NCBI GenBank assembly: GCA_020137815.1
Contig: CM035355.1
Span: 558,001 to 622,000, forward strand
Source: Hormiphora californensis
Taxonomy: Eukaryota; Animalia; Ctenophora
DNA: 64,000 nucleotides
Direction of reading: 5' to 3'
Shown here: positions 9,299 through 52,840 of the stretch, piece by piece
Numbering within the stretch: the stretch's first letter is position 1
How the letters are laid out: each line of letters starts with the position of its first letter
The notes under the pieces: model-generated
Seen by the model: the letters and a program-made list of their open reading frames with translations, nothing else
Told to the model about the DNA's origin: nothing
Database searches by the model: none
Position numbers and translations under genes: made by a program

Positions 9299-10797
9299 AT
9301 GGCTTATACTGAGGATAGCGTGAAATCCCTCAAGTCATTTCTGGTTTCGCACGGTCAGGAACATCTTCTGAACTTTTGGGAGGAGCTAAACCCAACTGAA
9401 CGGAGTGACTTGTACCGAGACATCTTAGCGGTTGATTTTGAGAATCATCTTGCCAGTTTTGACAGGTGCACGCGAAAGGAACAGGGGGCCGGGACTGATA
9501 AAGATCTCCAGCCACTTCCCGCTGAAGCATTTGAGAGTGTGTTCTCCAGTGAGTCTGACAACGAGAGATGGACAAGATTGGGGCTTAAGGAGATCAGTGA
9601 TGGAAAGGTGGCGGTGTTACTAATGGCTGGAGGACAGGGAACGCGGCTTGGTGTTCCATACCCCAAGGGCATGTACAACACTGGTCTACAAAGTGGGAAG
9701 TGTCTGTACCAGCTACAAGCAGAGAGAATCAGGAGACACGAGATATTGGCGAGTGAGATGTATGGGTCATCTAAATCCATTCAAGTGGTACATAATGACA
9801 AGTGAGCACACTAAGCGAGCCACTGTTAGATTACTTCAAATCTAACGATTGGTTCGGACTGAATGAGGAAAATATCATCTTTTTCGAGCAGGAAATGATC
9901 CCCTGTGTCTCATTTGACCGGAAACTCATTATGAGCTCCAAATCATCGCTATCTCGTGCTCCTGGGGGTAATGGGGACCTGTACAAGGCGATCGGGAACG
10001 AGGGTGTTCTACAAGACATGCTGAAGAAAGGAATCCGAAGTGTACATTGTTATTGTGTGGATAACATTCTCGTTAAAGTCCCTGACCCCCTGTTTATTGG
10101 ATGTTGTCTGGAGCGAGAGTCTGACTGTGGTGCCAAGGTGGTCTGCAAGTCTCACCCCACCGAAGCAGTGGGTGTCATCTGCCAATGTAATGGAATGTGG
10201 AAGGTAGTTGAGTACAGCGAGATATCCTTGGAGACAGCCCATCTAAAGAACGAGGAGGGAAAACTGTTGTTTTCCCAGGGTAACATTTGTAACCACTACT
10301 TCACGACATCCTTCCTGGAGGACATGGTCCAGGAGAAGGAGAAGCAGTTGATCCACCACGTGGCCAAGAAGAATATCCCTACAATTGATGGTACCACTGG
10401 AAACCCAGACACCGTCCAGGGAATCAAGATGGAGAAGTTTGTGTTTGATGTTTTCCAGTTTGCAAAACGGTTTACAGTCCTTGAGGTTAACAGGTCGGAT
10501 GAGTTTTCACCGCTGAAAAATGGGCCCGGTGCCAAGTCCTGCACTCCGGAGATCTGTCGGGAGGATCTGTCGAGGCTGCACAAAAAGTGGGTGTTGAAGG
10601 CAGGAGGTGAGTTTGAGGGAGAGGGACTTTGTGAGATATCTCCACTCGTCAGTGTCGACGGGGAGGGATCTTGATGGACTCGTGGCCGGGAAAACAATAT
10701 CACTTCCGGTTCACATGGATTCTAGGCCAACACAACCTACCAACGGACACTCCAACGGACACTCTAACGGTGTAAATGGGTTACATAGCAAGCTGTA
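9299..10797 (+). CDS. UAP1: UDP-N-acetylglucosamine pyrophosphorylase, intronless; about three small indels (~9783, ~9815, ~10665), probably sequencing errors
   Basis: Hallmark motifs VAVLLMAGGQGTRLG.PYPKG, LYQLQAERI, WYIMTSEHT (shifted frame), APGGNG.LY, YCVDNILVKVPDP.FIG, VVEYSEIS, GNICNHYF, IKMEKFVFDVF, EFSPLKN, EISPLVS..GEG. Confidence 0.95.
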
Positions 10798-11341
10798 AAA
10801 TGTGAATTCTGTGTAGTAGAGCATGATGCATCATCATAATGGTTTTGACTCGAACAGCATGTGCAAAACTAGGAGATCTGCATAGTGTAGTTTGTATTGT
10901 CCGTACTTTTAATTTGCAGTGCACGAGAGTCCGAGGAAGGTGTAGTACACAGTACTAGTTAGTACAGCATTTCTCTCGAGTACAAAGACGGTACAATTAT
11001 ACGGTGCAGTGTTAGTGTCAGAACTGTGAAATTTATCAGAAGATGCGTGTGTACGTGAGTGTTTTTGTGGGAAAAAGTTAGAGAGAAGAACTTTCAGTAA
11101 GCATACAGCTATGCATTTATGCTTGGAAGAGTTTAGTTAGTGTAGACTGCCTGGAAGAGTTTAGTTCTGCTTGAGATGATGTATGTAGTGTGTAATTGTT
11201 TTGCTGTGTACAATTTAGTTAATTTTACTAAACTGGGGTTTAGTGTCCAGTCAATACATGTGTAACCCACACAAATCTCTGCGAATATTTTCAGCTTTTT
11301 GGTTCATGTTCAATGCGTTACAGTTTTTAATAAGTGTAAAG

Positions 11342-13925: not shown

Positions 13926-13932
13926 CTCAGTA

Positions 13933-16749
13933 ATGACGCAAACGATTCTGGAGGCAGTTAGGGTTTACGTCCAGTTTTAAAACCTTGCCCCCCCAAACCT
14001 TTCTTTACCCCTAGGGGGACAGCTGGGGGGGTTTGATGTAAGGGGGTTTCCCCTGGCACCGCCGTTACAGAAGGGGCCCCTTCTCGCTGTTAAGGTTTTT
14101 ATTTCCTGTCTTTCAGTTCCCAATAAATCAAAAGAAAGGGAAAGATTTTTTTTCCCCCTTTTTTTTAAAAACCCCTTGGAATTAGTTTTTGTAAAATTAG
14201 AAAATCTGGTAATATCATCTCCCCTCTCTCAGATCAAAAGTGTGTGGTGGAGGTAGTATTGGGGTGATGCCTTTTATAGGTTTCACGTGACACACCTTAT
14301 ATGGGCATCACGTGACACACCACTCTCCCTTTCTCTCTCAGATCAAAAGTGTGTGGTGGAGGTAGTATTGGGGTGATGATAACTGCATCACACAACCCCG
14401 CTCCTGATAACGGGTTAAAGATTGTGGAGATGGGAGGAGAGATGCTAGCGGTTCAGTGGGAGAACTATGCAACACAACTAGCTAACACCCCCGAGACAGG
14501 TCTACCTGAGGTGAGAGGGAGGTGTCAGGTGTGACAGGGACATTCTGAGAGGGACCGGGGTTGCTGTATGATGGGGTGGGAGTATTTATATTTTGTATTT
14601 TATGGGAGCATCCATCTTGATTCTAACAAAATATATAATCCCGCCAGGCGTTAGTGGATCTATGTGAAAAGTTAAACGTGCCACTCTGCAAATCCAAATC
14701 TTCGGTAATTATTGGCCGAGATACCCGGGAGACAGGTCCTGAGATCCTGGCAGCTATCCAATCCGGGGTGGAGTCCCTGGAGGCTAGGGTCACTGATGTT
14801 GGGATCTGTACTACTCCCCAACTTCACTGGATCGTTAAACAGACGAACCTCAACCAACCCGCTACCCTGACTGACTATTACTCCACCTTTGCAACGGCAT
14901 TCAAGAAGTTTTCAATGAGGAACACCGGCAGGAAACTTTCTATAAAGGTGAGAGTTAGTTAAGTTCTGAGTTTTGATATAGTTACCATGTTCTGTGTGGG
15001 TTGTGAAGCTGTTATCATTACATTGCACTGTGTGTTGCGTGCCATATATTATACTCATTATGTTTGGGAATTATGTAAAACAACCTCTGCATCTGAAACC
15101 CATTATTTCATCTGTATTTCATCTCTAGTAGTACCATGTCTGACCCGTACACCGAGGAATACAACTTAGCTCTGAGGGTGGTAAAACAGGCTGGCCCTCT
15201 TCTCTCTGCCGCGTTTACTACACAAAGCAAGACTATCCACACCAAATCCTCGCCAACCGATCTGGTCACTGAGACAGACAAACTAATTGAGGATTTCATT
15301 TTCAATGAAATAGAGAAGGCCTACCCCGATGATGGGTTAGTGGGAGAGGAAACAGGGGGAAGATTTAACGAGGGACGAGTTTGGATCCTTGACCCTATTG
15401 ATGGCACAACCAACTTTGTTCATAGTAACCCCTCTATCTGTATAAGTCTTGCACTTGCAGTAGCTAGGCAACCTGTTCTTGGTGTAATCTACAACCCACT
15501 GACAGAGTCGCTTTACACTGCACGTGCTGGCAAGGGCGCCTTCCTTAACGGATTCCCACTCTCTACCTCCCGGTGTAAGACCCTCTCTAGAGCTCTACTA
15601 TCCACTCACATCCTCTCAGACGCCTCACTAGAGATCAATATTGTGAATATTAGGAGGCTACACACTGATAACGCGTGCCGGGGAGTCAGGATGGGAGGTA
15701 GCTCAGTGCTCATGTTGTGTGATGTGGCGGCAGGGTCTAGTGATGGGTTCTGGGTGGAGGGTCTTCATATTTGGGATCTGGCAGCTGGGATTCTCCTGGT
15801 TCGAGAGGCTGGGGGAGTGGTAATATCAACAGTGAGGGGAGAGGAGTTCAGTTTGGTTAAGAGAAGGGTGATTGCAGCGGGGTCTGATGAGTTGGCAAAA
15901 GAGATGTTGGATACACTGAAGAGGATCCCTGGAGAACTTTATAAACCTGATCTTGATGTTGATAATTAGTCATCGGATCATTATCTAACCCCCTAATGGA
16001 ATCGGGATCAACCCATCGTTTGATAGTCAATGATTTAGAATGTTACATGACTTTTACATGACACTTTTTTTACGACACAGTGTTGTTTTCCTGTATCTCC
16101 CTCCCTCTTCAACACCCCCTAATCTCTACTTTCCTTATTTACCCCATCTCTATCTCTAATACCATTCTCTACTTTCCTAACTGACCCCCTCTCTCCTTCT
16201 CCAATCTCTAATGTCCTGATTGACCCCCTCCCTCCCCCAGGTGGACTGTGCGAATGGTGTTGGAGCGGTCTCTCTCCGGGCCATATCCCCTCTCCTCAGT
16301 GAGCTGCTTGATATTGACATACATAACGATGGAAGTGAGGGAGAACTCAACAAGGACTGTGGAGCTGACTTTGTCAAGGTAATTGGGTACTAATTAGTTG
16401 CTTTCCCGGCACTTCTGTTATAAATTCTGTCCTTCACCCTCTTGTTTCCATATAACCACACCCTGTTTCCCTAGAATTAATTCCATTTCTTCCTCTAATA
16501 ATCCTCTCTTATTGACCCCCTCCCACACAAGAAATCTTTTGTTAGTCCCCACACACAGTTAATTCAGACCTCTCTCACCGAGTATTACCTCCCTCCCCTC
16601 CTACACAGTTAATGCAGAACGCACCGAAAGGTGTCTCTTACACGGAGAACGACCATTGCTACACTATAGACGGGGATGCTGATAGAATACTCTTCTTTTA
16701 CAGTGAGAACCACAGGTGATTTATTTTCCAAAACACTCCGACACCCCCC

Positions 16750-16785
<36 letters not shown>

Positions 16786-18050
16786 GATCGAACAGCAAAA
16801 CTTGTGGTTTATCAGGAGGAAAATCAAACATATTATTTTTATCACGTTATCCAAATACAACTTTTCGGTGTCTCCAACAACACTCCAAATCACAATTACC
16901 CCGAACCTCCAGGTTTCACTTGCTAGACGGGGATAAGATATCATGTTTATTGGCATCCTATATTAGGAGACTATTAGACGAGGCCGAGATGAATGTTGAA
17001 GTTGGGGTGAGTCAGTGCAGTAGGGGTATCATGGGCGATGAAGGGATGGACCATTTCACTGGGCAGATTCTCTGCAGTTGAATTTCAATTCAGTTCTCAT
17101 ACCAATCTCTTTTTCAGGTGGTCCAAACAGCATATGCTAACGGCAGTTCAACTTCCTACTTGCAAGACCAAGGAGTTGAGGTTGTGTGTGTTCCTACCGG
17201 GGTAAAACACCTTCACGCCGCGGCAGAGAAGATGGATATTGGCATCTATTTTGAGGCTAATGGCCACGGGACTGTTTTGTTTAGTAACAAGGCCATAGCT
17301 GCCATAAACAAAGAAGCAGACCAATGTGACTCACTCAAGGGTCACCGGACTCCCATGCAGAAATTACAGAACCTGACGGCGCTAATAAACCAGGCGTGTG
17401 GGGATGCAGTGACTAACATCTTGGTTATCGAGGCGTTACTAAGGGACAATAGATGGATGGTGTGTGACTGGGATGGGCTTTATACCGACCTACCCTACAG
17501 ACAGTTAAAAGTAGCAGTAGCTGATCGCTCTCTTATTAAAACATTTGACGTGGGAAAACAACAGTGAAAAGGAGGGGCTACAATCCCCAAAAAGCGATCT
17601 GTTCTCATACATCCCGGTGCCAGGTTTTTTTTGGCCAAAGTGGTACTGGAATTTTGTTGTGGCACGCTGGTTAAAACACAAGGGACCGAGCTTGTCCGGC
17701 CGTGGGGGAGTTTTGGGGTTCGATTTTCCGAAACCCCCGTGTAAATTTGAGTCCCACATGGGTTTAGTGGCAGCATGGATTATTTTAATGAGGGGGTTGT
17801 GTTAAAATTTTTGTTTATTAATGTTTATCAAAAAGGATTTTTTTTAAACCCCCAAAAAACTTGTTTTAACGGAACACATCACGGCGGCAGAGGCTCGAGT
17901 GTGGGAGAGACATCGAAGAAGACTTGTAGAGTTGTATTAGCAACAACCCAACAAACTTCCCAGTTCTATTGGAAGATGGAGCGCGCGGTACAAGAGGGCT
18001 GTGAAAAGTGCGCTCATCAAGTTCAGCCGAACGCAGTTACTCAAAAATTT
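13933..18050 (+). CDS. PGM3: Phosphoacetylglucosamine mutase (AGM1), about 8 exons: ~13933-14094 (error-ridden), 14342-14510, 14648-14947, 16241-16378, 16609-16715, 16913-17006, 17118-~17600, ~17890-18050 (error-ridden)
   Basis: Phase-consistent GT-AG junctions join GVMITASHNP..DNGLK, IIGRDTR..TTPQLH, VDCANGVGA..CGADFVK, DGDADRILFFY, FHLLDGDK, VVQTAYANGSST..TGVKHLH..GIYFEANGHGT. Exon 1 retains MTQTILEAV and gggacagctggg (GTAG). The 3' end retains an SGTED.VRVY-like remnant. Confidence 0.93.
15136..15969 (+). CDS. Inositol monophosphatase family phosphatase (IMPA-like), intronless, nested in PGM3 intron 3 on the same strand
   Basis: Intact 277-aa ORF with KSSPTDLVTETD, GEE, WILDPIDGTTNFVH, GVIYNP, GKGAFLNG, HIWDLAAG..LVREAGG. 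It lies between the PGM3 donor at 14948 and the acceptor at 16240. Confidence 0.95.
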   Translation: MSDPYTEEYNLALRVVKQAGPLLSAAFTTQSKTIHTKSSPTDLVTETDKLIEDFIFNEIEKAYPDDGLVGEETGGRFNEGRVWILDPIDGTTNFVHSNPSICISLALAVARQPVLGVIYNPLTESLYTARAGKGAFLNGFPLSTSRCKTLSRALLSTHILSDASLEINIVNIRRLHTDNACRGVRMGGSSVLMLCDVAAGSSDGFWVEGLHIWDLAAGILLVREAGGVVISTVRGEEFSLVKRRVIAAGSDELAKEMLDTLKRIPGELYKPDLDVDN

Positions 18051-21000
18051 TAGCAACAAATTTGTAAATTTTTTGCCTTTAGTTATAATATTGAAGTTAA
18101 TTTTGAAGATTAGCTAAAGCGTTAACTTATTTCATTACCTGTTAATTTTAAAAAATTTAGCAAATTAATTTTTAAAATGTTTGGGGAAAAGGCGATAATT
18201 TTAATCTTATAAACTCAAATAAGCCCGCAAATTTATCAAAAATTATCGCGCGCAAAAAATTTTTTTTTTCCCATTTTTTATGGAGAGCGACTCCAGACCG
18301 GAAATTCGAACCGCGCTTTTTGTTTTGCTTGCGCGCCTGTTCCCCTTCCCAGGAGTTTTAAAATCTGTCTCCCAAATTGGAAACGTTTTTTTGCCCCACC
18401 ACGTGAAACCCCAACCATAATGCACCTAGCTCTCAGCCGAACCTCACGGACAACTTTAATAGCCCTTCCTCATCTTCGACAGAGCAAAACCCTTTTTGCT
18501 AAAGGGGAACTGAAGTAAAAATACGCCCCCCCTGACACCCCCGAGAATCAAAACTGCCCATCCTTAACAAATGGGGTGAAAAAGGTGAGGAACCCCCCCA
18601 GAAAAGGAGACAGCTTAGCCCTGGAAAGCGGGCTTTTGGGCCTTTTACCCTGACAGGGGGAACCCTAAAGCTAGAGGGGGGGGCCGAACCGGGCACTTCG
18701 GGCATGGCTCTCATCTTTGGCGGTAAAAACCGGCCTCGGCCCCCCTCCCCCTCTAAAAGGGGTCCCCCAAAACCACCCCAAAACCTTTTCCAACAGACTC
18801 CATACCCAAAACGCCCCCTTGATAAAAAACCCTCGCAGGTCCCCCCACCCGCCCCAAAAGGGAAAAAACCGCTGAGCTTGGTCCCCCCAGTGCCCCCCTT
18901 GTTAAACCAAACGGAAAAGCCCCCATCTCATCAAATAAAAAACCCCGTTAAATTTTGAACCCTTAACCCCAAAAAACACCCAGGGAAAACAAAACCAAAA
19001 AGCCCACCCCCCTAGTGTCTCAAAAACATCACTCCCCCCCGGCCCTTACAATCCCTGGTTTTTACTTGAATCTGAAAGGGAAATCGGAATCGGAGTAAAC
19101 GAACACTAAAGTACTGAAAAAGGATTTTAAAAAAATTAGGAAATCTTGAGGTTTAATTTTCCCTGAGGATTTCCGCCCCAAAACCATTATTACCCCTGAT
19201 GGACCCCTCTAACACCCCAATCCGGGGCCCCGGGAAAAAATGTTATTAGGTTAAAAGGGGGGTTCAGGACTAAAAGAGCAGCCCGGGTAGGCCCTCACCT
19301 CGGCCCCTGCCCGGAAAAACGCCCCAAAGTCCTCGGGAGCTGTTTAAAAAAGTTCTTGACAAACAAAGTGACAAAAATGACTCCAAAAGGGCGGGAAATA
19401 AAGGAAACTAAAAAGACCTGAAAGCCTGGGAAAACCACCCCCCCAGGCAAGTTAGTTTCCCCCGGCTAAAAAACCTAGTGAGATTGACACTATCTCCCCG
19501 GGAAAACCTTTAAAAGGTTAAACCCAGTTTGTACAAAAACAGATGACCCCACTCCCCCCGGTTGACAACTCCCAGTCCGCAGCTGCGTCAAATGCAGCAG
19601 ATCGGGCTGCTGGCGTCGGCGTGACTAACTCTCGCAAACCCAGCCCAAAGACAAAACAAAAAACCCACTCAAGGTTTAAGGTCCAAGTGGAATCCACGCT
19701 AACCTAAAACAGACCAAGTACAGAAGACAAGTTAGGAAAGGCTTTCCATCGGAGAACCCCCCACGCCCAAACCCGGAAACCCCCCCAAAGGGGTCGGGAA
19801 AATGGAACCGAGAACCCCGCCTTTTTTCCCCCTCAACAACCCTTTACGGGGGGGGGGTTTAAAACCCCCAAAAAATTTCCCTTTATACCCCCTTTTTTTC
19901 AAAAGGAAAATTTTTTTTGGGTTTTTTAAAATTTAGTTTTGGAAATTTTTTTGGAAATTTTTTGAATTTTTTTGGAAATTTTTTGAAAATTTTTTTAAAA
20001 ATTTTTAGAAATTTTTGGACAATGGAAATTTTTTGGGAAATTTTTTTGTAAATGGAAAAATTTTAGAAAATTTTTAAGTTTTAAAATTTTTTGAAATTTT
20101 GAAGTTTTTTGAAACCCTTTTTAAGTTTTTACCCCCTTTGTCGGTAACCCAATTCCAAGGTAATTTACAGGTAAACTATTGGTGACATTGACACCTAAAT
20201 GCTGCGGTCGGGGGGGCGCCGGGGAACCCAGACGAGTCGCACATAGGTTTCCCCCTTCCCCCCCCTAAAAAAGGGGCGGGTCTTTCCCAACCAAATTGCA
20301 AAGTGATCCACGGCCGTTTACATCCGGGGTTTTTGGGAAAAGACTCCAAAATTTGGGCCCCAGTTTTTTGGAAAATTTCCCCAGAAAATTTTTTTGGGCA
20401 AAAGGAAGGGGTCAAAAAATTTACACTAGTCAAAAACTATTTTTGGGGTTTCCCCAGCTTTTTTCCCCCACTCCCAGAAGGTTTTTGAATTAATCTGGGG
20501 GTATCAGAAAAAGGTTGAAATCGTTAGTACCGTCGGACCCGATTTTGGGCCCCCCGTTTGTGGCAACCCCCCATTTAGGGACCGGATTTTTTTTCCCCCC
20601 CCATATAAGGGAAAATTTAAACCTTTTTTTACCCCGAAATTTAATGGAAAAAAACCCCCATTTTTGTGGACAAAAGGCCCTTTTCCCCCAGGGTTTTTCC
20701 CCCCAAAACCCGGGGTTTCCCAATGTTTCTGGAAAAAACCCGGCATTAATAGCTGGGTGCTAATTGCATCAACATATCACCCAAAATTCTAAATCGCATG
20801 GGCGAGTGCAAAAATTCGGAAGCCAGATTATAGGTTTTACTTCAGTGTCAATTTTACCCCTTTCCCGTTTCAAAAAACTTCTCGGGTTTTTTTCCAGGTT
20901 TAGGACATTTGTTCTTTGCGACCCAAATGGGTCAAATCGGGCCCCGTGGATCGCCCTGCAACATCCCTTTAAAGAAAAGACCCTTTTTGAGGCGGGGCAG

Positions 21001-22450
21001 ACACCGTGTGTGACTCAATCTTGGTCGTGCACGGTGTCTAGTCACCAAGGGAATCTATGAAAGTTTTCGACCCGTAAGTTAGTATTATTCTGCCTTTTAA
21101 CCCTTATGAGTTTAAAAAAGTTTAAGTTTCTATAGGGATGCTAAAAAACCCCGAAACTACACGGTATTCATTTGCCCTGGTAAAAGGACCGCCCGAAAAA
21201 TTTTAAAAGTAATTTCCCAAATACCCCCTTATATAATAATGGTATTTTGTGTATTTGGTAATTATTTTAAACATTTTCGAGAGTCCCGCCTTAGGCCAAA
21301 TGAAGCTATGATTTCTGAAAATTGTAGGGGATTGCCCAAAATATTGTTCGATGTCTTATCTATTTTCAATAATTTATTGATGCTCAGTTTCACAAGGAAA
21401 GGAAAGGGAAACCAGTTCTTCGAAAAGTGTTTATTTTTTCAATTTTTTTTAAATTTTTTTTTTCTTGGCAAGGGAAAAATTTTTGGAAAAATTTTTGAAA
21501 TTTTTGAAATTTTTGGAAAATTAATGGAAATTTTTGGCCCTTTTTAAAAATTTTTAAAAATTTTTTCTAAAACTTAAAAAAATTTCTTTCAACCAAAATT
21601 TCTAAAAATTTTAAAAAATTTCCATCGATCCCCGGGATTTTGGCAAAAGGAAAAAGGAAAATTTTTTGGTTTAACCCCCCCCCCCCACCAGGGGCTCAGA
21701 ACAAAGCCAACAAAAAATGTGCTTTTACGGATAGCGTTAGCGTCCCTCGACCAAACCAAACAAATTTTGGATTGGGAAAGTTGCAAGATAATCAACATTA
21801 GCTCGATCGACAATCTGGCTAAGAAATCCGGCGAAACGGTCAAACAGTTGCGCTCCTATGAGCCCGACTTTCTGTATGTCCACCTAGGGATTAACGACGT
21901 GCAGAACAAGACAGACCCCGCCACCACCAAGAACCAACTTTTCTTTTCCCCCAGAATTCCCGCTTAAACCCCCCCCCCCCCAAATTCCTCCCCTTCCAAA
22001 CTGCCCCCACTTGGGCCAGTCCCCCCAGAAGTGGATCCCCAGATGGTTTTCGCCAAATGGGTAAAGCAAAACCCCCCAGGGTCAGGGTCCTCAATTGGGA
22101 AAAAACAACAAAACAACGACCATCTAGCAAGTGACGGAATCCACCCAACTGATACAGGGAAATCAATTCTCCTAAAAAACTTCCAACGTTCGATCCACGC
22201 AATCGTTAAACCTTCAGCCTAATTCATGACACGAGTTTTGAACCCCTAGTTTACTAAAATCCTCCCGGAAATTTAAAGCCTTGGTCCACCCCTAACCCAA
22301 AAGGAAACCAAGAGGCCTGTCCTCTCAATAGTTTGATGTTATTCTCCTCCAAGGCCGGAAGGGAACCGGGGTTTGCGGGGTTTGACTGTACTGCACATCG
22401 AAACAATGCCGTGGGGGGTTTTGCCTTCCCGACAAAAAAAGGGTACGGGG
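17550..22450. other. Low-quality (unpolished) sequence with pervasive homopolymer expansion
   Basis: Abrupt excess of A/T/C/G runs; the recognisable PGM3 and LINE coding sequence is broken within it. Confidence 0.8.
21719..22222 (+). mobile_element. Degraded LINE ORF1 SGNH-esterase fragment (CR1/L2-like)
   Basis: YVHLGINDV (SGNH block III) and HLASDGIHPT.TG (DxxH block V) in adjacent frames. Confidence 0.6.
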
Positions 22451-22959
22451 GCGGGGGCAACTACCCCGGACCCGCGACTTACCCGATGATCTAGTCTCCA
22501 TTACGCTCTCAGCAGAATTTTTTGGCCTCGACAGAGACGCGGTCATCTTGTGTATATATGCCAGGCCCAAGTACAGTGATAACGATGGTGAAGGTCCCCA
22601 AAGGTGGAATGTTTTTGTTCCACTCATCAACACATTAAAATCTATCATTTTAATAGAGTGCTGATTGGCACAAACACATTTTACACAAGTCAGTTGTTAT
22701 ATGTCGTGTCAGAGAATTAATGAACGGGAGTCGAAGAAACCACTGTTCTACATTTTTGTATTCTTCTACACTCACCATAACAAAGCAGGGTATGTATGGG
22801 TCCAAGTATCTCGACCTTGAACTGGTCTTGATCCGTGGCAAAGAATGGCACCCGTGAAGGGTGTGGGTCTTCCCTCACACTGCACACACCATACGGTTAA
22901 GTTGTAGTTGCCTAACCCCTTGGTGACTTACAACACACATTACCACCGTCGGTGTATAA

Positions 22960-32059: not shown

Positions 32060-35000
32060 CCCCCACTCTAGGGGTGAGACGGCGCGCCCTCCTGCAACGA
32101 GTCCCCCGACCTCTCAGCGTGGAGGATGGTTAACATAGTGAGCCAGAATGTTAGATGCAATAGGGGGTTTTCAGGGTATGAGTCAGGTCCATCAGTAGAG
32201 TTTGGAATCACTAGGCAATGTTCTAAGGTAGTCAGACATCTGATCTGGGTGGTTAGTACTGGAGACAGGTGGAAGAGGAGGTGGTCCTCGTCTTCCACAT
32301 GGAGACAAGCCCGATCCATTACACAGGAACAAATTCTTTTGTCCCTTAGGGAGGATACTAGAGAAGTACGGACCTCTTTCGATTGCAAGATGGTGGAGCT
32401 AGTAAGAAAACGGTTAAGGTGGTTCTGTTTCCGTAGTGGATACGGTATGTAGCACTTGGCTGGAGAGAAAATCCATATCACCCGCTTTAAAGAAGGAAGA
32501 GCTGGGATTTCGGTTTGATGTGCCTCGCTCTAAACAGGATCGAAAAGCACAGCGAGGATGGTGTTCACCTTTCAGGGGTCCTAAAACCAGCCTGATGCAA
32601 GCGGAGGAGAGGGTCGGGAGAGGGGCGACAGGGTTAGGGGGTTAGGGTGTGGGGTGGGACTGCTTTGGGATCTCTAATGATTCGAGCGGCCGTCAATGTG
32701 AAGGTAGCCTTCCTTTTAAAGCCTATAGATTCATCCAGCTGAGGAGGGGCAGGATCGACGGAACCAAGGTAGGTGGTACTTCTATTGTTCAGTAAGAGCT
32801 CGCTTGGCTAGACATGAGCTCTATCATAGTTTGGAGGCCTATTGACGAAGGATTTAGAGTGGGCCTATATCCTGTCCTAGATGCGAGAGGCTGGGCGGCC
32901 GGCAAGCTTTCCATCAGCACGTTAGAGGTCCTCCTCTGTGAGGCCCCCAAGCGCCCACTTCAGGAACTGATGTGTACCTTCAGTGGGATCTGATGCATTC
33001 TCTTCAGCTGGTGCGGTGATCATGCTAGTAGCCTAGAATTTTGAGAGTGTAAGCCCTGGGTGACCAGATTTGCGGCCTGGCCATAGAACAGGATAGGTTT
33101 GCACGCGAGGGTGGCAAAGAGGATAAAAAGGCTCTTGGGGATTTATAACGTCTCTACTAATTGCCTTCTGGAGCGCGTAACCGGCTTCTAGTTGCCTTAG
33201 TGCAGCAGGTCCAGCTTGGGGCTTTTTGTACTTTTGCCGTCGCTTGAAGGTTGATACCAAGGTAACAGTACCGGATGTATTCTCCACTAGGTTTGAGCCG
33301 AGTTTGAGCTGGGGACCGGGGGCGTCCAATGCTCAGATGAAAACCAGGTCTTGTTTTACCCACAGGGATTCTAACCCCCGTCTTTGCAGAACTTGCCGAG
33401 CAAATCGAGGAGTTTTGGGCGGTGACGGGTTGGTAGCTAGTAAAACAAGATCGTCTGCCCACAGCAGGTGGCTGAGGGGGAATCCGGAGAGAGTAGGACA
33501 CCCCCCTGTAATTTTATTACGCCTGGGGAGATAAATCATGGAGATACTTCATGTGCTTGAAAGGTAGGGGTCAGAGCGGATGACCCTGCTCTGTGCCCTT
33601 TCTGTGGGAACTTTCGACTCAGGAACCCCGATATTTTGATCTGGCTGGGGTGTGAGTCTATACCTTGGTTCTGAGCGTTGTAGAAGTTCCCCGTAATGCC
33701 CAGCGCCTCGCCAGTTTGTAGACAGAGCCTGTCGTGGGGACGCTGTCGACATAAAGCCTTCCGCAGGTCGACAATATCCCATACAGGTCTACGGGCCTTC
33801 TAAACACTTCCACGAGAGTCTGACAATGTAAAGAGATGGTCGCATGTCTGTTGAACCTGGGCAACAAGCCCAATTGATTTGGGGTGGTTCAGGGCAATGT
33901 GCTGACGAAGGACTGGAAGTCCCTGTTAAGGAAGGAGCAGGAGCTGGTAGAGTTTGACCCTAACTACCACCGCCACGCTCGATAGTCTGTCTGGGTCTCA
34001 TGCGGGGCCCCTTTTGTGAAGAGGGGGTTGAGGGAGTTGCTCCAGGGATAGGCAAAACCGGGGGGGGGCTCTTTCCAAGCATAGATTAAGACATAGTGAG
34101 AGTTTCACACTGGGCCTATTAGGCAACTTCAATATTTTCGTTGCTGGATGGCATTCATCGCTGACAGCGTTCCCTCTTTTAAGTTTCTTAATTGTTTCCT
34201 CGACCTCAGAGGCGGAGAACCGATCGTTCCACTCAGGAGCACCACAAGGACTTCAGCTAGGAGATCCGCTTCTTCGAGGAGCTGCTCTTTCCTAACAGTA
34301 TCAAGGGTTGGATGGGAGTCCCTATAGAGATTTTGGAAGAAGGAATGGAAGGAGTTAAGATCGTGAGTATCAAGGCCTGATGCGCTGCTGTTGAATTGTT
34401 TCAACTTTTTCAGCTGGTTCCAGTCGACAGATGCCCCTTCCTCAATTTTCTTGTTCTCGTTTCCCAGGAAGGCCATCATGTGCTTTCTGCTAACTTTCCT
34501 CATGTGGGCCTTTGTTTTATAGAACTTGTGTCTTAAGTGGTCATTCTGGGGGTCTGTGTCAGCCAGAGTTCGAGCGTCATTGACGGCACCCTTAGCCTCC
34601 TTTATTTCTCTGTTGGCCCAAGGAGGTTAAGCGGGCGCTTTTGTTTCATTCCTGGCAGTTTGACCTAGAGAGATGGAGAGTACGCGAGAGTGGAGATATG
34701 ATCCAGAAAAGCCTGGCATGCATTGGTAGCATCTCCGGCACTAGGATTCGGGAGGGCGGAACGGATGGTGGCGGATACCGGGAGGTCGGAGAGGTCAGAA
34801 GGTAGGCTTTCCCGAAAGGACTTCAGCTGGCTCGGGACTATGGAAAACGGGGGTGTGGTGCCCGGGTGGTAGGTGTGTGGTGAGGAGAAGCAGAGGAGTT
34901 CGTTGGCGAGGTGTTCAGGACAAGCAAGAGAGGCCGATGGTCTGAGTGGTTGGTAAGCGGGAGGATCCTCATATAATCCAGCCGGTTGGCAAGGGGGGTG

Positions 35001-35379
35001 GACACCGCGAAGTAATCGATTATACGGAGCATCCATTGTACTGGATGCTAGTAAAGTCCCCAGTTACATCGCCAAGCGTCCTACCGTTCAACAACCGCAG
35101 CTGGCAGTTTTGAATGAGTGAGACAAATTCCTTGTGGTGTCCACCAATGATAGGATCTCGGGTTGAGCGAGGTGGGAGTTGATCGGGGATGTAGTCCTCA
35201 GGCATCGGACAGAACCCGACCCCTTCTCCGTCAGGTTCCCACTCAGCGACTGTGCAAGGGTCGGGTCCCACACGTGCGTTCAGGTCACCTCCTAGGATTA
35301 CATCGACACCAGTGAGGGAACTAAGAAGCTCTTCAGCAGATATTATGGTTTCCTTCCCCAATTCCAAACTATGCCACAA
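32060..35379 (-). mobile_element. Degraded non-LTR retrotransposon ORF2 (APE endonuclease plus reverse transcriptase)
   Basis: APE motifs VILGGDLNARVG, LLNGRTLGD.TG.FT, IIDY...SDHRPL; RT motif LLWADDLVLLA (33333-33539); many frameshifts. Confidence 0.85.
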
Positions 35380-36264
35380 TATTTAATTTTATAACTGCTT
35401 TGGGTCTGTAGAATTGTTTACTCTCACCTATTAGGTTGGTTACGAAGTCACCCCTTTTATTGCATTACTCTGTGAGTCATATCAATGCTGAGGGGTAATT
35501 TTATTACCAACCTATTAGGTGAGTCACCTAGATATTTGGTCAAATATAATTTTCCAGCAATTGCCCAAAGTCGTTTGAAACTGGCACTGAATACCAAAAG
35601 CATTACGGCATACGAGTTCATCAATTCTGAACGACTATAACTCACAAGGACTAAGTGTAAAAAATGTGTATTAAAATTTGAGCCAAATCAGCCCTCAATT
35701 AGAAGATAAGATTTTAGATTTTGAAGGTTGATTAGTGTCAAACATTCAAAACTTTGTCACGATGTTTAATTTTTTAACTGCTGGGTCTGTAAAATTGTAT
35801 ACTCTCACCTAAATGTTTGGTCAAATATAAATAGCCTACTTGAATCTGCAAACTCATTTATGACTTTGGCCAAGTACTGAATGCCAAAAACATTATGGCA
35901 TACGAGTATGAGTATTTTGAACAGTAGAGGATTTGCTCTCCAAGTGCTCTCTGGTAGATACTGATATGAGTAAAGTCGGATTTTTTGAAGTTGTCACCCC
36001 AAAATGACCGCGCATGTGAAATTTATCAATTTTGACGCGCACACCACACGTTAACATGTGATGTGACGCGCAAAAACATTCCGCGCACGAGAAGGGGGGT
36101 GACAACTTCAAAAAATCCGACTTTACTTTAATACGATTATGAGAACAATGGTTAATTCTTAGAAAAATTTGAAACCACTCATACGCGTATTCCTCTCCAG
36201 TATTCAAAAGGGGGAGAACCCAAAAAGAGAGTCCGCGACGCGACCCCTGGGGGGGAAAGGGGGA

Positions 36265-45336: not shown

Positions 45337-48300
45337 CTAAACCTCACCATCACCACCACCACTAGACACACTCGGTGTCTGTGCCAGTCTAATTTGAAAC
45401 CTGGCACTAACCCAGGGCTCCCCCAGCTGCAGGACAGGAACATTGTCTGGTATTTGGTGGAGGACATTGCTAACCGTCACAACCAATCTAAAATCCCCGA
45501 CCTCATCACTAACAGGAAGTGCTTGTCGTCTGAGTTTCCTGGCCACACTGTTTATGACGTCACGTGATTTAGTGGAGCTTGTTATGTGGAGTTTGATACA
45601 TGGAGCAGGGACCACTAGATCTCCCGAGCTGTAGATCCTGACTACCCCACTGGATCTATCTAGCGTGTCCGTTACACTGGTAGCCGGTGAGGATGGGGAG
45701 AGGAGATCTGAGATGGATCGGAGGGAATCTGAATTCTCAGTCATCAGATCAGCGAGGACGTTACTGAAAGTACAGTATTGCGCCCAAACATCATTGACCG
45801 TGTCGTACACACTCTTTATCTGGGTCTGGTTCTTCTTTAACTCCGCACACCGGTCACTATTTATAGTCTGGCGGATCTGCTGCGTGAGTAACGCGTGACA
45901 TGTACTCACGTGACCAATGGTGTGTAAGATGGACCGCGTGAGTTCCTCCCCTGCTACTATGTTCAGCAAGATCTCATAATTCTGTAGTGGCACAGATATA
46001 GTTCCCTCCGTATCGGCATCTACACCGAGCGGGGAAACAACAGCGGGGGGAACTATCAATATCACACTAGCTCGACCGACCTCGACTATAGTCTTAGTGT
46101 AGATCGAGTAACTATCAATGTCTGATAGAGTATCCTGGAGCCTTGATAGTAGAGTACACGCCGCGGCAGAGACTTGACGGCACAGCACTGAATTGTCATT
46201 ACCCATAGTTAGGGATCTCCACTCGTCCGACGTTACATGCCCATTCTCCCTCACATACTCAATAGGGGGTAAAAGTGGGGATGATTTATCGACCACAATC
46301 TCCAAATCCTCTCCCTTCATCTTGAATTGCAATAACCCCACAAATAACCCTGGGGTTTGGGACACACTGAATCGAGTATAGAGCGTCTGGAGATCAGCCG
46401 CGTTGAGATGTGCTATATCAAAAGCATCCCTCGGCTGAACTGCACTGGTGGTGAGGGATGAAAGGGGTTTCAGGGAGACTGAGGTGAATGGTGGTGATGT
46501 CATATCCACAGTTTTAATCAGCAGTATCAGTAGTTGTCCCTCTCGTTTAACTAGTCTGTAGTAGGGCACACCAAGGTCAGTACAACTGAGACATTCCTGG
46601 AGGTAGATCGCCCCACTGAGGATCTTATACCTCAACCCAATCCCGCCTACATCTTGGCACTGAGCCAATTCGTCCCTGAGTTGGGAGGTACCCTGCCATC
46701 CGGACACGGCATGCTTGAAGAGCCATGTTAGTTCTGTTTCTGCAGAGGGCGCTGTGACTAGTCCTTCAACCTCTACTGTTGGTAGTTTATCCGCCTCTGT
46801 TAGGAGGACTTTACCGGCGGGGGTGCAGTGTAAAACTGAGAGGTATAGACACCTGAAAGAGATGTAGAGATTAGAGATATAATGAGAGTGAGGAAAGAAG
46901 TAGAGGCACTTAGTTAAGTGGTGAATAATTTTAATTTCGATCGTATGCTTGGGGTAAATTTTTTGTCAGCATGATAACTTCTGTTCATGCGATACACATT
47001 ATTTGGATAACTTCTGTCATCTGATTATTTCACCATCCCGCCGCTCTTAATCGGTTGAATATTTCTCGCTGATAATATTGAGAAACTACCAGTACCCACA
47101 CTGTCATAGCAAAAGCTTTTAGTATATTTCTTGGGATCAAAGTATTATGTAGAAAATCGAGACAAATTCAAATGATACCATGGTGCCATTTTAACGTGAT
47201 GGTATATTTCATTCCCTCTTCCTCACTCTAGAAAATATTTCTTCATATATAATACCAGGGAACTCAAACATGCATCCTTTCAATGTTCATTATTTCACGA
47301 GGGAAATTTTCAAAATCTCAATCAATTTCTAATATTATTTATTTAGGTTGGGCACATCGGAATTTTAATTTCGGGGGAATATAAATTTCTGCAATTCCTT
47401 CAGCAATACCTCTCCGCAGTGGTATCACAGAATTAGGATGTCTCTAGGTAGCTCTGTGTCTCGACATGATCCTTAACAGCTTCACAGTTACCCTGTTATG
47501 TGGTTTAAGCCTCCTACCCAAAGTTCTCAGAAATTCTCGTAACCACTTTAGTAATATCTCCCTACTCGTAACCACTTTAGTAATATCTCCCTATTTAATT
47601 TCACCAAGTGAAGCAGAGGTTCCCATACTCTCTCTGTGTAGTGTGGACTCAACGAAATGGGTAATGATCATATAACTCGTCAACGTAACTACAAACCTAT
47701 TGAGAGTTTTGACGAATTTCGGTGAGCTGAAAATCCTGCTCAGACTCTTGTTCCGCGTTTTGGTTTTGGAGGGAGTGGCAGTCATGAGATGGGGGAAGAG
47801 AGAGCTGTAGTTGGTCCGCATATCGGAGAGACATTTGGAGATGGTTGAGAGGTGTGTTATTGTGTCGGGTAGTCTCTGGTTACAGTCTGACCAATGAGAT
47901 GGACGGCACCTGGGAGAGAGGGCGGTTAGTGGGTGGGTTAGGGGTTAGTGGGTGGGGAGGGCGGTTAGTGGGTGGGGGATGACACCTGGGAGAGAGGGCG
48001 GTTTGTGGGTGGGTTAGGGGTTAGTGGGTGGGGGAGGGCGGTTAGTGGGTGGGGGGATGACACCTGGGAGAGAGGGCGGTTAGTGGGTGGGTTAGGGGTT
48101 AGTGGGTGGGGGAGGGCGGTTAGTGAGTGGGTTAGGGGTTAGTGGGTGGGGGAGGGCGGTTAGTGGGTGGGGACGACACCTAGGAGAGAGGGCAGTTAGT
48201 GGGTGGGTTAGGGGTTAGTGGGTGGGGGAGGGCGGTTAGTGAGTGGGTTAGGGGTTAGTGGGTGGGGACGACACCTATATAGGAGAGAGGGCGGTTAGTG

Positions 48301-48708
48301 GGTGGGGGAGGGCGGTTAGTGGGTGGGGGAGGGCGGTTAGTGGGTGGGGGAGGGGTTAGTGGGTGGGGACGACACCTAGGAGAGAGGGCGGTTAGTGGGA
48401 ACCGGGAGGGTTAGTGGATACTGGATGGGTTAGTGGTTAGGGGTCCGCAATGGGTTATAATAGTAGTTACTAGTTAGTGGCTAGTATTTTAGTAAATGGG
48501 TCAGGAAGATAGGTAGGGGAATAATGAGGGGTGTTATAGCGGTGAGTATTTTGGGAAAGGGGAAATGCTTTTGTTGTTTATGTCAATGGTATAATTTACA
48601 GATTTGGTCCCCATAAATATTCAGAACCCATTATTGATGATTGCAATACATTAGCCATCGTGAATGTCCAGGTTGACCTCTTAGCGGGATAAAGAGGGAT
48701 AAAGGGCG

Positions 48709-48755
<47 letters not shown>

Positions 48756-50591
48756 AGAGAGAGAGAGAGAAAGAAAGGGTGGATAGAGGTAGGATTTATG
48801 CAACATCTGCTGCAAAGAGGACCCACTTAACCAAAATCTGGTTCAGTTTTAATTCGGCAACAAGCTGCCATTTCTCGAAAACAGAATTTTTGTTTATTTA
48901 TAGATCAGAGATAAGTCTAGACATGACCTTGAGTGGGTTAACTAGTTCTACGTCGTGGGTTCCATTTCGACAGTTCCCTCAGATGGCATTGGCGGGGCCC
49001 AATATCTTTTAACTATTTGACTACCTTTGGCATTGCAAGGTTTGGTGATGTGAGTCAGTGATTGTTAACAAGATAGACAACGATATAATGGTACTAAATC
49101 AAATAAATTGACAGAAGCTTTCGAGATCACTGTGTATCACGTCTTCAGCTATAATGAGAGTGAGGGTGGTAGTCCTTATAAGGGAGGAGAAGAGATAGGT
49201 GATCCAGAGGGAGGAGATGTGGTTAGGAAGGAGAGGTGATCCAGGAAGGGGAGAGAGGTAGGTGATCCAGGGAGGAGAGCAGCTAGGAAGCGGTAGGTGA
49301 TCCGAACTTGGAGATGTTGCTGGGTCTAGGATGGAAGGAAGAGGTGATCCGAGGAAGGAGGGAGTTCCACTGAGGATTGATGGCGGGTCCCTTGAGGGTA
49401 CGGTTGAGTTCAGGTTTGAGGATAGTAATGGCAGCGTGTTCTAGGAGATCCAAGTGGGAAGAGGATGGAGCAGTAGTTAGGATTTCCGTGTTGTTCCAGC
49501 CAATGGTGTGTGAAGATTTCAGGGCATGTAGGGCAGGGGCGGATTTGATGTTTCCATAGGAATCAGTAGAATTATCAAGGCGGTGATGGCGCTCGTGTTC
49601 CGTGATGCGAGTAAGAACAGGTCGTTTGGTTTGGCCAATGTAGGAAGCAGGACAGTCCAGACAGGGAATCCGGTAGATAACGATGGAGAGAGAGTAGTAG
49701 AAGATAGGTTAATAACGGTTTTAGAGGTATCCAGAGCTGGAGTAGTGGGGGTAGTAGTACGTAGGGGTCCAGAGATGGAGGGAGATGAGATGTGGAAGTC
49801 TCGAAGTAGGGAGTAGGGGTTGGCGGAGGGGGAGTTGTAGTAACGGAGGAGGTCACCGAATTTCTTCTGGTGAGACGTCATCAGAGAATGGTCAGTGATT
49901 GGTTTCCTAGGCGATGTGAGTCAGTGATTGGTTTCCTAGGTGATGTGAGTCAGTGATTGGTTTCCTAGGTGATGTGAGTCAGTGATTGGTTTCCTAGGTG
50001 ATGTGAGTCAGTGATTGGTTTCCTAGGTGATGTGAGTCAGTGATTGGTTTCCTAGGTGATGTGAGTCAGTGATTGGTTTCCTAGGTGATGTGAGTCAGTG
50101 ATTGGTTTCCTAGGCGATGTGAGTCAATGATCATGGTTTCCTAGGCGATGTGAGCCAATGATTATGGTTTCCTAGGCGATGGTTTGTCAAATACTGTGGT
50201 CTGTGGGATCAGGGAGGCTGGGTCAGAGGTAAATAACAAGATGACTCAACAAGGCGAAATAAGAAGAGATAGGAACTTTATTTTGGGGCGTGGGTAACAC
50301 AACAATAACTTACTTGACTGGGTGGGTAGCGGTTCCAAACCCCTTTATGTTTCCTGCCTGGACTGTGAAGTAATACGTTGTACCCTGTCGGAGAATGTGG
50401 AATTATGACAACAATTGATTAGTAGTTGGGTTAAACCGACAAGGCACTGGGGGTAAGGACGCAGAACCCACAATTACTGGTTCCTATCAGTACCTTGGAA
50501 AGGCCACTAATTGTGTGGGAGAGGAAGTGTCCAGCAGGTACTGTTTCTGACCAGATATCACTCTTGAAATTGGGACAACAACTCCACTGAA
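45337..50591 (-). CDS. ANKFN1: Ankyrin repeat and fibronectin type-III domain protein (wide awake / banderuola homolog), 3' exons: 50591-50494, 50384-50314, 47909-47697, 46852-45337; 5' exons not located
   Basis: Spliced FN3 second half VQWS...HTISGLSKGTTYYFTVQAGNIKGFG, then CRPSHWSD, FSSPKFVKTLNRCLYL, PGLFVGLL, VRENGHVTSDEW and a C-terminal RA-like domain (IKLHITSSTKSRDVINSVARKL). All match the ANKFN1/wake architecture as I recall it. Confidence 0.82.
47908..48410. repeat. Intronic G-rich tandem repeat (gggttaggggttagtgggtgggga) containing copies of the splice acceptor
   Basis: The motif cacct(g/a)ggagagagggc recurs at ~47907, 47983, 48061, 48177 and 48373. Confidence 0.85.
49380..49890 (-). 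mobile_element. Internally deleted Penelope-like retroelement (N-terminal region joined to GIY-YIG endonuclease, RT absent)
   Basis: Minus-strand reading gives HQKKF...KTVINLSS followed directly by VIYRIPCLDCPASYIGQTKR..TRITEH..SAPALHA..HTIGWNNTEIL..LLEHAAI..LNR. Confidence 0.8.
49891..50180. repeat. 29-bp tandem minisatellite, about 10 copies
   Basis: (gtcagtgattggtttcctaggtgatgtga)n, with no spacers. Confidence 0.95.
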
Positions 50592-51628: not shown

Positions 51629-52840
51629 CTAACATGCTGTTTCTATCCTGGTTCCTGGGTTCAGAACACCCTTCTGCAGTACACAATTCAAAGACAGTTT
51701 CTTGGGGATGGAAACGTTATTGTTATTGTTGAACAGCATCGTAGCAGCAGGACTGTGACCCTTCATCGTAAAACTGCTCCCTCCAGGATGCTCTCTCCCA
51801 TTATGATTCCAACTCCACCTACACATGATCACCCTCGTGCAATGATCACGGAGTGCTCGTATCCTGGCCATGTATACCAGAGGGTTAAATGTACTGTTTA
51901 GTGGTATACTATACACGGTGATAGCGAGGTGTAATATATGGAACTGGTCCTCTGTCAGTGAACCCTGGTGATAGCTCCAGGAGTATTCGCTAAGCACGGA
52001 GACTTGGTCCAGTGCCAACATTATGCAATAGGGTAGGTTAAAGAATATATAGAGGCCAGTGAGAATGATTATTGTTAGAGTTGCACTTCGTTTAGTTTTC
52101 AGGGACTGGTGTATCAGTTGGTTGTTGTATTTGTCGTAGTTTGCTGTGTTACCACAGCACACTGGAGTTGATTTTAGCTGGTATACCGAGATAATACAAC
52201 TCGCTATTATAGGGAATATGGGGAGAATGTATTCGAATACCACTAAGAGCAGTGTCAGTCCTTTAAATTCAGGGGTATTGATTGGGAAGATAGCCCCCAG
52301 AGACCATCCACAACCCCCCGCAGCAGGGAAAAAGAAGTAACTACTCCCGAACCAGAGGGGTATCGTCTGCTGGATCATTAGCAGCACCAGGTAACTCAGA
52401 ATGGGCGTTACGATGTGCTTCGGGCTCAGTCGGACGAAAGGGAGCGTCATGCATACTGCACGAAGGATGCTCATTAGGCCGATACAAAAGACGGAGAGTC
52501 GAGCTGTGATCTGTTGTAGATACCCCCATGCTATACACAGGAGATGAACACTAAAGAACATCTCACGTCCACCAGATATGAGAGTTACAGCAGAGGGTAG
52601 GTAGAGGAGACACATGGTGAGGTCTACCAAGTTATTGAACATGTGGAACAGGGAGACATAGCTGGTTGCCCTCCTAGATTTCCGGATGAAGTAGGACAGG
52701 GAGAGGAGGTTAGTGGGTACCCCAACTAACACACAGAACATTGAGATGGCGGCGAAGAAGGGGAGAGGGTAGTTGGTGGCAGGGGTTGAGGTTGAGCTGA
52801 AGTTGGCTGTTAGGGAGGGAGGCGGTTCTGACATCATCAT
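51629..52840 (-). CDS. Intronless rhodopsin-like (class A) GPCR, probably nested in an ANKFN1 intron
   Basis: Seven hydrophobic segments with PTNLLSL (TM1 Asn), LVDL..LP (TM2), LMSILRA..LPF (TM3), FFNLPY (TM6) and NSTFNPLVY (TM7). First ATG (MMMSEPP) at 52840; the ORF track starts at TTG 52927. Confidence 0.9.
   Translation of the reverse strand: MMMSEPPPSLTANFSSTSTPATNYPLPFFAAISMFCVLVGVPTNLLSLSYFIRKSRRATSYVSLFHMFNNLVDLTMCLLYLPSAVTLISGGREMFFSVHLLCIAWGYLQQITARLSVFCIGLMSILRAVCMTLPFVRLSPKHIVTPILSYLVLLMIQQTIPLWFGSSYFFFPAAGGCGWSLGAIFPINTPEFKGLTLLLVVFEYILPIFPIIASCIISVYQLKSTPVCCGNTANYDKYNNQLIHQSLKTKRSATLTIIILTGLYIFFNLPYCIMLALDQVSVLSEYSWSYHQGSLTEDQFHILHLAITVYSIPLNSTFNPLVYMARIRALRDHCTRVIMCRWSWNHNGREHPGGSSFTMKGHSPAATMLFNNNNNVSIPKKLSLNCVLQKGVLNPGTRIETAC

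What the first reader, a model, noticed from the sequence alone, without database searches (positions are those of the whole stretch)
14948..16240. Intact IMPase-family gene nested on the same strand inside PGM3 intron 3
Seen: an 834-bp ORF fills most of a 1293-bp intron. Only ~180 nt separate the host donor (14948) from a pyrimidine-tract acceptor tttcatctctAGtAG (15128/15131) lying 5-8 nt before the ATG. Cis-splicing from PGM3 exon 3 would give an immediate TAG, or an out-of-frame stop, so no fusion protein is possible. I see no AATAAA between 15970 and 16240. Inference: the IMPase mRNA may be released from the PGM3 pre-mRNA by spliced-leader trans-splicing, so the two enzymes are competing or coupled outputs of one transcript.
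Basis: partly seen in the sequence, partly recalled or inferred. Interest (0 to 1): 0.8.

Follow-up and report, generated by a model that had tools for sequence, protein, structure and literature searches.

The report
Comb-jelly phosphatase nested inside PGM3 intron
In a comb jelly, an intact phosphatase gene lies on the same strand inside an intron of the amino-sugar enzyme PGM3 and is likely cut out of the PGM3 transcript by spliced-leader trans-splicing; such nested genes are common in comb jellies, but how they are expressed is open and no RNA of this species shows it yet.

Summary
Observation confirmed. An intronless 277-aa IMPase-family ORF (15136-15969; Pfam E 1e-71; all metal ligands kept) lies on the + strand inside PGM3 intron 3 (14948-16240). 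Exons 2-7 splice into one open frame, 58% identical to Bolinopsis PGM3. The animal is a Pleurobrachia-type ctenophore. A P. bachei gene model fuses the same PGM3 exons to the same ORF, so the nesting recurs there; the AG that fusion needs is TG here. The ORF looks selected (conservative changes, p=0.0014) and has a selected-looking acceptor (118 nt without AG, p=0.0015). Ctenophores trans-splice at least 56% of mRNAs, so an SL cap is likely. Whether the precursor is the PGM3 transcript (about 0.5) or comes from its own promoter (about 0.3) is untested. UAP1 and PGM3 also have an AG just before their ATG. Parallel nested genes are already described in Hormiphora (2,357 nested genes, many parallel), with the mechanism left open. 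Added here: two sugar-binding residues are replaced (E162H, E213V), and a UAP1-like gene, the next pathway step, lies 3.1 kb upstream. The scan's notes showed no earlier report of this arrangement.

The parts
9299..10798 (+). UAP1-like (UDP-GlcNAc pyrophosphorylase-type) intronless gene, the pathway step after PGM3; reading frame shifts near 9780-9800 and near 10670 in this assembly
   Evidence: PF01704 in both large pieces; frames; the name UAP1 is from recalled motifs plus Pfam
13933..14095 (+). PGM3 exon 1 (ATG 13933, acceptor AG 13929-13930 just before it); degraded in this assembly, end approximate
   Evidence: remnants match Bolinopsis and P. bachei N-termini by eye
14342..14510 (+). PGM3 exon 2 (TASHNP active-site motif)
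14648..14947 (+). PGM3 exon 3
14948..16240 (+). PGM3 intron 3, 1293 nt; the other four measured introns are 111-230 nt
15009..15131 (+). 118-nt AG-free, U-rich stretch ending in tandem AGs at 15127-15128 and 15130-15131: candidate trans-splice acceptor
15136..15969 (+). Intronless IMPase-family ORF, 277 aa; metal ligands E71, D86, I88, D89, D214 kept; H158 and V207 replace human E162 and E213
15970..16100 (+). U-rich region after the stop, no AATAAA; candidate 3' UTR
16119..16240 (+). Three ~40-nt C-rich repeats with branch-point-like words, then the host acceptor (158 nt without AG)
   Evidence: (families D3, D6)
16241..16378 (+). PGM3 exon 4
16609..16715 (+). PGM3 exon 5
16913..17006 (+). 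PGM3 exon 6
17118..17545 (+). PGM3 exon 7, readable part; the remaining C-terminal coding sequence to about 17800 is degraded in this assembly

Best explanation
An intact, intronless IMPase-family gene sits on the same strand inside PGM3 intron 3 of a Pleurobrachia-type comb jelly, and its mRNA is likely made from the PGM3 primary transcript by spliced-leader trans-splicing onto the AG at 15128 or 15131. Shown: the nesting, the open frame, the kept metal ligands, the stop on cis-splicing, the AG-free zone. Inferred: (1) the gene is expressed and selected (about 0.9); (2) its 5' end is an SL (about 0.8); (3) the precursor starts at the PGM3 promoter or further upstream (about 0.6 given step 2). 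Each precursor molecule would then yield one product. Either exon 3 is cis-spliced to the reinforced acceptor at 16240 and PGM3 is made, or the SL takes the inner acceptor, PGM3 exons 1-3 are discarded as an outron, and the phosphatase mRNA ends at a weak non-AATAAA site or runs on to the PGM3 poly(A) site. The protein is predicted to be a Mg-dependent sugar- or inositol-phosphate phosphatase with an altered ring-binding pocket; its substrate is untested.
For: Only 188 nt lie between the host donor and the ATG, the size of an ordinary intron of this gene (111-230 nt), and three upstream ATGs lie in them (14987, 15060, 15073). The inner acceptor has 118 nt without AG (29 of 20,000 base shuffles, p=0.0015). 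Cis use gives an immediate stop. The host acceptor carries three C-rich branch-point-like repeats, as expected if it must outcompete an inner AG. No AATAAA follows the ORF, whereas 3 of 4 other ORFs checked in the window have one 39-61 nt after the stop; a strong site here would truncate PGM3. The SL is on at least 56% of Hormiphora Iso-Seq reads and many nested genes are parallel (PMC8527503). In Schistosoma, SL addition at intronic acceptors occurs with an upstream donor present (PMC5832876 passages). Selection: 18 differences from P. bachei are conservative (mean BLOSUM 0.72 against -0.44, p=0.0014); model pLDDT 88.5, TM 0.92 to human IMPA1. Run X1, a diverged relative guessed to be RNA, holds short orthologous IMPase pieces beside PGM3 pieces that cross two exon junctions without intron (read by eye).
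Against: No RNA of this locus was seen. An AG shortly before the ATG is also present at UAP1 and PGM3, so it is the ordinary 5' end of a gene here. The U content of the inner acceptor (14 of 30) is not clearly outside the six cis acceptors (5-13 of 30). UAP1 also lacks a nearby AATAAA (first at +1117). Polycistronic mRNAs had not been reported in ctenophores as of 2021 (PMC7986045 passage). The Schistosoma paper also found intronic promoters behind some internal SL sites. X1 contigs are 157-196 nt, under 90% alike, show no leader and say nothing on nesting. The shuffle test used single-base shuffles of a region chosen after seeing it.
Confidence: 0.5

Rival explanations
1. Independent nested gene: the IMPase has its own promoter in the 5' part of intron 3 or in upstream PGM3 exons or introns, and the short outron is replaced by the SL or kept. 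The two genes share DNA but not a precursor.
For: Trans-splicing hides start sites and tolerates any outron (established knowledge). Intronic promoters with SL addition are described for C. elegans and Schistosoma (PMC5832876 passages). Neighbouring genes have the same AG-before-ATG design.
Against: Little room (188 nt, carrying the host donor and the inner acceptor); no AATAAA of its own. No tool here can score ctenophore promoters.
Confidence: 0.3
2. Cis-spliced alternative last exon: PGM3 exon 3 is joined to the IMPase exon, giving either a PGM3(domain I)-IMPase fusion, as in the P. bachei model, or a stop-containing message that down-regulates PGM3.
For: P. bachei model sb|3464665| is exactly such a 447-aa fusion, joined SIK|YFISSSTM. 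Donor-to-acceptor distance is a normal intron length.
Against: The AG that model needs reads TG at 15113-15114 here (sequence); the two real AGs give stops. The ORF starts with its own family-typical Met. The homologous unnamed proteins are stand-alone 273-279 aa. Fused models of neighbouring trans-spliced genes are a known annotation error (PMC7986045 passage).
Confidence: 0.1
3. Silent, recently inserted retrocopy or an assembly artefact.
For: Intronless; diverges faster than PGM3 (17 of 273 against 2 of 156 residues versus P. bachei, Fisher p=0.015); the assembly has error-rich blocks nearby.
Against: Same arrangement in the P. bachei model; no stop or frameshift in 834 bp; conservative changes; GC3 0.48 equal to PGM3; no A-run of 4 or more after the stop, no target-site duplication beyond an 8-mer, no repeat match in the window; orthologous pieces in run X1.
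Confidence: 0.05
4. Coupled release from the excised intron: PGM3 is spliced normally and the IMPase mRNA is rescued from the lariat by SL addition and 3' cleavage, so one precursor gives both mRNAs.
For: Fits the missing AATAAA and the strong host acceptor.
Against: Needs polyadenylation of a lariat-derived RNA, for which I recall no animal precedent; none was found in searches.
Confidence: 0.05

Closest known systems
Parallel nested intronic genes of Hormiphora californensis (PMC8527503, sections 37-38 read)
   Same: Same family of ctenophores; a whole gene inside one intron of a host, same strand; genome with pervasive SL trans-splicing.
   Different: That paper counts 2,357 nested genes in 1,654 hosts and leaves the processing of parallel ones unexplained. 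Here the nested gene fills a 1.3-kb intron with only 188 and 271 nt of flank, and no transposon flank was seen within the window. Its supplement (list of nested genes) could not be read, so this locus may be listed there.
SL trans-splicing at intronic acceptors in Schistosoma mansoni (PMC5832876, passages)
   Same: SL addition competing with cis-splicing downstream of a donor; both promoter-dependent and promoter-free cases.
   Different: There the SL mostly lands on the host's own exons and makes truncated isoforms; here it would release an unrelated complete ORF.
SL-resolved operons of nematodes and tunicates (PMC7986045, passages)
   Same: One precursor, downstream ORF freed by SL addition.
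   Different: Operon genes lie in tandem and both mRNAs can come from one molecule; here the second gene is inside the first, so outputs would be mutually exclusive. Operons were not reported for ctenophores.
Human IMPA1 (PDB 1IMA/4AS4) and the Dictyostelium galactose-1-phosphate phosphatase (PMC12324327, preprint, passages)
   Same: Fold (TM 0.92), metal ligands E70, D90, I92, D93, D220 (PMC4954947 passages; alignment).
   Different: Ring-binding positions differ: E162 to H, A196 to S, E213 to V. In the Dictyostelium enzyme positions 162 and 213 were modelled as setting sugar-phosphate choice.

Membership tests
Inositol monophosphatase family (PF00459) | Profile match above the curated cut-off | tested here: met
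   241.9 bits against cut-off 27
Inositol monophosphatase family (PF00459) | IMPase fold | tested here: met
   Model pLDDT 88.5; TM 0.91-0.92, rmsd 1.4-1.5 A to mammalian IMPA1
Inositol monophosphatase family (PF00459) | Mg ligands E70, D90, I92, D93, D220 | tested here: met
   E71, D86, I88, D89, D214 (residues from PMC4954947)
Canonical IMPA1-type myo-inositol monophosphatase | Ring-binding residues D93, G94, T95, A196, E213, D220 (and position 162) | tested here: not met
   D89, G90, T91, D214 kept; S190, V207, H158 differ. Human IMPA2 also lacks E213 (Q), so this lowers 'IMPA1-type', not 'phosphatase'
Canonical IMPA1-type myo-inositol monophosphatase | Hydrolyses inositol monophosphate | not testable with these tools
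   needs an assay
Parallel nested intronic gene | Complete gene within one intron of a host gene | tested here: met
Parallel nested intronic gene | Same strand as the host | tested here: met
Parallel nested intronic gene | Own mature transcript within the intron's bounds | tested here: inconclusive
   only short contigs of a diverged relative
SL trans-spliced gene | Unpaired acceptor shortly before the ATG in a lineage with SL RNA | tested here: met
   'unpaired' only in the sense that cis use gives a stop
SL trans-spliced gene | Leader joined at the acceptor in cDNA | tested here: inconclusive
   no read covers 15129-15140
SL-resolved operon (polycistronic unit) | One primary transcript spanning both genes, no internal promoter | not testable with these tools
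   needs nascent RNA or start-site mapping

The most novel reading that the evidence does not exclude
UAP1, PGM3 and the nested phosphatase form a ctenophore amino-sugar gene cluster read through SL trans-splicing, in which a cis-versus-trans splicing choice in PGM3 intron 3 switches one transcript between the enzyme that makes GlcNAc-1-phosphate and a re-tuned IMPase that removes its phosphate: a splicing toggle between opposing enzymes, and the first polycistronic unit in ctenophores.
Probability: 0.1. Interest if true: 0.8.

Novelty: new member of a known kind. Interest (0 to 1): 0.42.

Why it matters
Ctenophores have thousands of nested genes, many on the host's strand, and the genome paper states that these need an unexplained transcription or splicing system (PMC8527503). 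This locus is a minimal case: 188 nt of intron before the ORF, a clean acceptor, no canonical poly(A) signal. One long-read or 5'-end experiment can decide between host-transcript release and an own promoter. Release would be the first polycistronic processing in the phylum as far as the papers read here go. It also flags the P. bachei PGM3-IMPase fusion model as a probable annotation error, and points to a phosphatase with a changed pocket beside two consecutive hexosamine enzymes.

Tried and rejected
No whole genome is held for this window, so no genome-wide acceptor, poly(A) or paralogue statistics were possible. No RNA holder was listed for 14300-17600; the one listed run, X1, covers only 15581-15617 and 15742-15785 of the ORF. 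Metagenome scans: 0 relatives among 361 pattern matches with the window protein; 1 of 87 with P0002, a 38% match to a short stretch, not used. No Bolinopsis, Mnemiopsis or Hormiphora IMPase was among the 120 rows listed; those searches score only about 8,000 candidates, so this is no proof of absence, and nesting outside Pleurobrachia stays untested. A 278-aa Bolinopsis PGM3 (XP_063681883.1) first suggested a split gene, but a full 541-aa copy is in the same cluster and the short one reads through the exon 3/4 junction: rejected. No SL-like motif in the window at up to 3 mismatches; no Rfam match; no unusual RNA structure in either intron flank (z +1.7 and +1.2); no inverted repeat or target-site duplication bracketing the ORF. 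The tree (quick method, 37 rows, careful search unfinished) puts the ORF in a 99-supported clade with six unnamed ENA/JGI/Logan proteins; their taxa are unknown, so origin (duplication, retroposition or transfer) is unresolved. The ESM Atlas gave no answer. Derelle et al. 2010 could not be read. Paper searches found no paper on SL release of same-strand nested genes; the library lacks most subscription journals.

Full report
Observation. An 834-bp ORF runs from ATG 15136 to TAG 15969 and matches PF00459 at E 1.1e-71; 1000 base shuffles of the intron gave ATG ORFs of 72 aa on average and 200 at most. The host is PGM3: six exons from 14342 to 17545 join into 411 codons without a stop, 236 of 404 columns identical to Bolinopsis microptera XP_063681559.1, whose sequence reads straight through the exon 3/4 junction. 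Intron 3 is 1293 nt; the other four measured introns are 111-230 nt. Cis-splicing from exon 3 to the AGs at 15128 or 15131 gives a stop at once or after three residues. There is no AATAAA after the ORF. PGM3 exon 1 and its last coding part are not readable in frame and lie in homopolymer-rich blocks; I read these as assembly error (inference), since the P. bachei model has an intact end of exon 1.

Organism and recurrence. The best homologue is Pleurobrachia bachei gene model sb|3464665|, 93% identical over the IMPase and differing at 2 of 156 residues in PGM3 exons 2-3. That model is a 447-aa fusion: PGM3 up to SIK, then YFISSST, then the IMPase. So the IMPase follows PGM3 exon 3 in P. bachei too. 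The seven linker residues are the translation of the window's acceptor region; the AG the fusion needs is TG at 15113-15114 here. I take the fusion as a probable prediction error, a known failure for trans-spliced neighbours (PMC7986045, passages), but I did not see P. bachei DNA or RNA. Nesting in other ctenophores was not testable: no named ctenophore IMPase other than this one was among the 120 rows listed, and the metagenome scans gave nothing useful.

Is it a live gene? The 18 aligned differences from P. bachei are conservative (mean BLOSUM62 0.72 against -0.44 for random single-base changes, p=0.0014). It does diverge faster than PGM3 (17 of 273 against 2 of 156, p=0.015). GC3 equals that of PGM3 (0.48). 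The AlphaFold model (pLDDT 88.5) superposes on human IMPA1 with TM 0.92. The Mg ligands named in PMC4954947 (passages) are all kept. Run X1, listed only by species label, guessed to be RNA and mostly under 90% alike, holds three short contigs on the ORF whose loose ends continue as homologous codons, and PGM3 contigs that cross the exon 1/2 and 5/6 junctions without intron (read by eye). This is weak evidence that an orthologue is transcribed in a relative; it shows no leader and no nesting. No poly(A) remnant or target-site duplication marks a recent retrocopy.

How it is likely expressed. [quoted passage not shown] The inner acceptor looks selected: 118 nt without AG (p=0.0015 by base shuffles), and no YTRAY word within 60 nt, whereas the host acceptor has three C-rich repeats with branch-point-like words. 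An SL cap is therefore likely (about 0.8). The source of the precursor is the open step. For the PGM3 transcript: only 188 nt precede the ATG, with three upstream ATGs, and the ORF lacks the AATAAA that 3 of 4 other ORFs checked in the window have 39-61 nt after the stop. Schistosoma shows SL addition at intronic acceptors with an upstream donor present (PMC5832876, passages). Against: UAP1 and PGM3 have the same AG-before-ATG design, UAP1 also lacks a near AATAAA, the U content of the inner acceptor (14 of 30) overlaps the range of six cis acceptors (5-13 of 30), the same Schistosoma paper documents intronic promoters, and ctenophore polycistrons had not been reported (PMC7986045). I put host release with mutually exclusive outputs at 0.5, an own promoter at 0.3, cis-splicing at 0.1, silence or artefact at 0.05, lariat rescue at 0.05.

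What the protein may do. In the alignment to human IMPA1 E162 is H158, A196 is S190 and E213 is V207. D93, G94, T95, A196, E213 and D220 are cited as ring-binding residues, and positions 162 and 213 were modelled as setting sugar-1-phosphate choice in a Dictyostelium family member (PMC12324327, preprint, passages). Human IMPA2 also lacks E213, so a changed substrate is possible, not shown. The quick tree (37 rows; careful search unfinished) places the protein among six unnamed environmental proteins (support 99); the two basal ones keep both glutamates and the nearer ones have lost them, which suggests a diverged paralogue. Their taxa are unknown.

Neighbourhood. A UAP1-like intronless gene (9299-10798, PF01704) lies 3.1 kb upstream on the same strand. 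PGM3 and UAP1 are consecutive steps to UDP-GlcNAc, sharing GlcNAc-1-phosphate (established knowledge). Its frame shifts near 9780-9800 and 10670, by assembly error or decay. Adjacency in other species was not tested. This is the basis of the bold reading (0.1).

Comparison and verdict. It is a member of PF00459 and of the parallel nested intronic genes; it fails the residue test for an IMPA1-type pocket; membership among SL-resolved polycistrons is untested. Glass sponges also have about 2,400 nested genes and a leader (PMC10282587, passages); PMC12221973 (passages) added nothing on this. Searches found no paper on SL release of same-strand nested genes, in a library that lacks most subscription journals; Derelle et al. 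2010 could not be read. The scan's notes held no look-alike; notes on the same genome agree on a comb jelly with a leader. New member of a known kind, valuable as a compact test of an open mechanism: interest 0.42.

Noticed in passing
window 9299-10798 (+): Intronless UAP1-like gene 3.1 kb upstream of PGM3 on the same strand: two consecutive hexosamine-pathway enzymes side by side. Frame shifts near 9780-9800 and 10670 (assembly error or decay).
   Followed up: partly
window 13960-14300 and about 17545-22500: Homopolymer-rich blocks that garble PGM3 exon 1 and its 3' end; they look like low-quality assembly, so apparent lesions there should not be trusted.
   Followed up: partly
window 14224-14269 / 14333-14378 and 16553-16568 / 16603-16618: Duplicated acceptor plus exon start for PGM3 exon 2 (46 nt, identical) and exon 5 (16 nt): decoy acceptors or assembly duplication.
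   Followed up: no
P0001 (P. bachei sb|3464665|): Public gene model fuses PGM3 domain I to the IMPase; probably an annotation error caused by the nesting.
   Followed up: partly
P0121 / P0240 (Bolinopsis XP_063681883.1, XP_063681559.1): Bolinopsis has a full and a truncated, nearly identical PGM3 model on contigs of equal length; the short one ends at the exon 4 boundary.
   Followed up: partly
window 51629-52840 (-): Intronless 400-aa ORF with several hydrophobic stretches, GPCR-like by eye, no Pfam match at E 0.01.
   Followed up: no
window 45337-46852 (-) and 47591-47911 (-): A 1.5-kb last exon with a weak RA-domain match, and an exon with a weak RPN13_C match preceded by a tandem array that repeats acceptor-like units (about 47910-48460).
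   Followed up: no
window 62445-63326 (+), 34129-35382 (-), 49283-49920 (-): Retroelement-like remnants; the first matches an endonuclease family (PF14529), the others are judged by eye.
   Followed up: no
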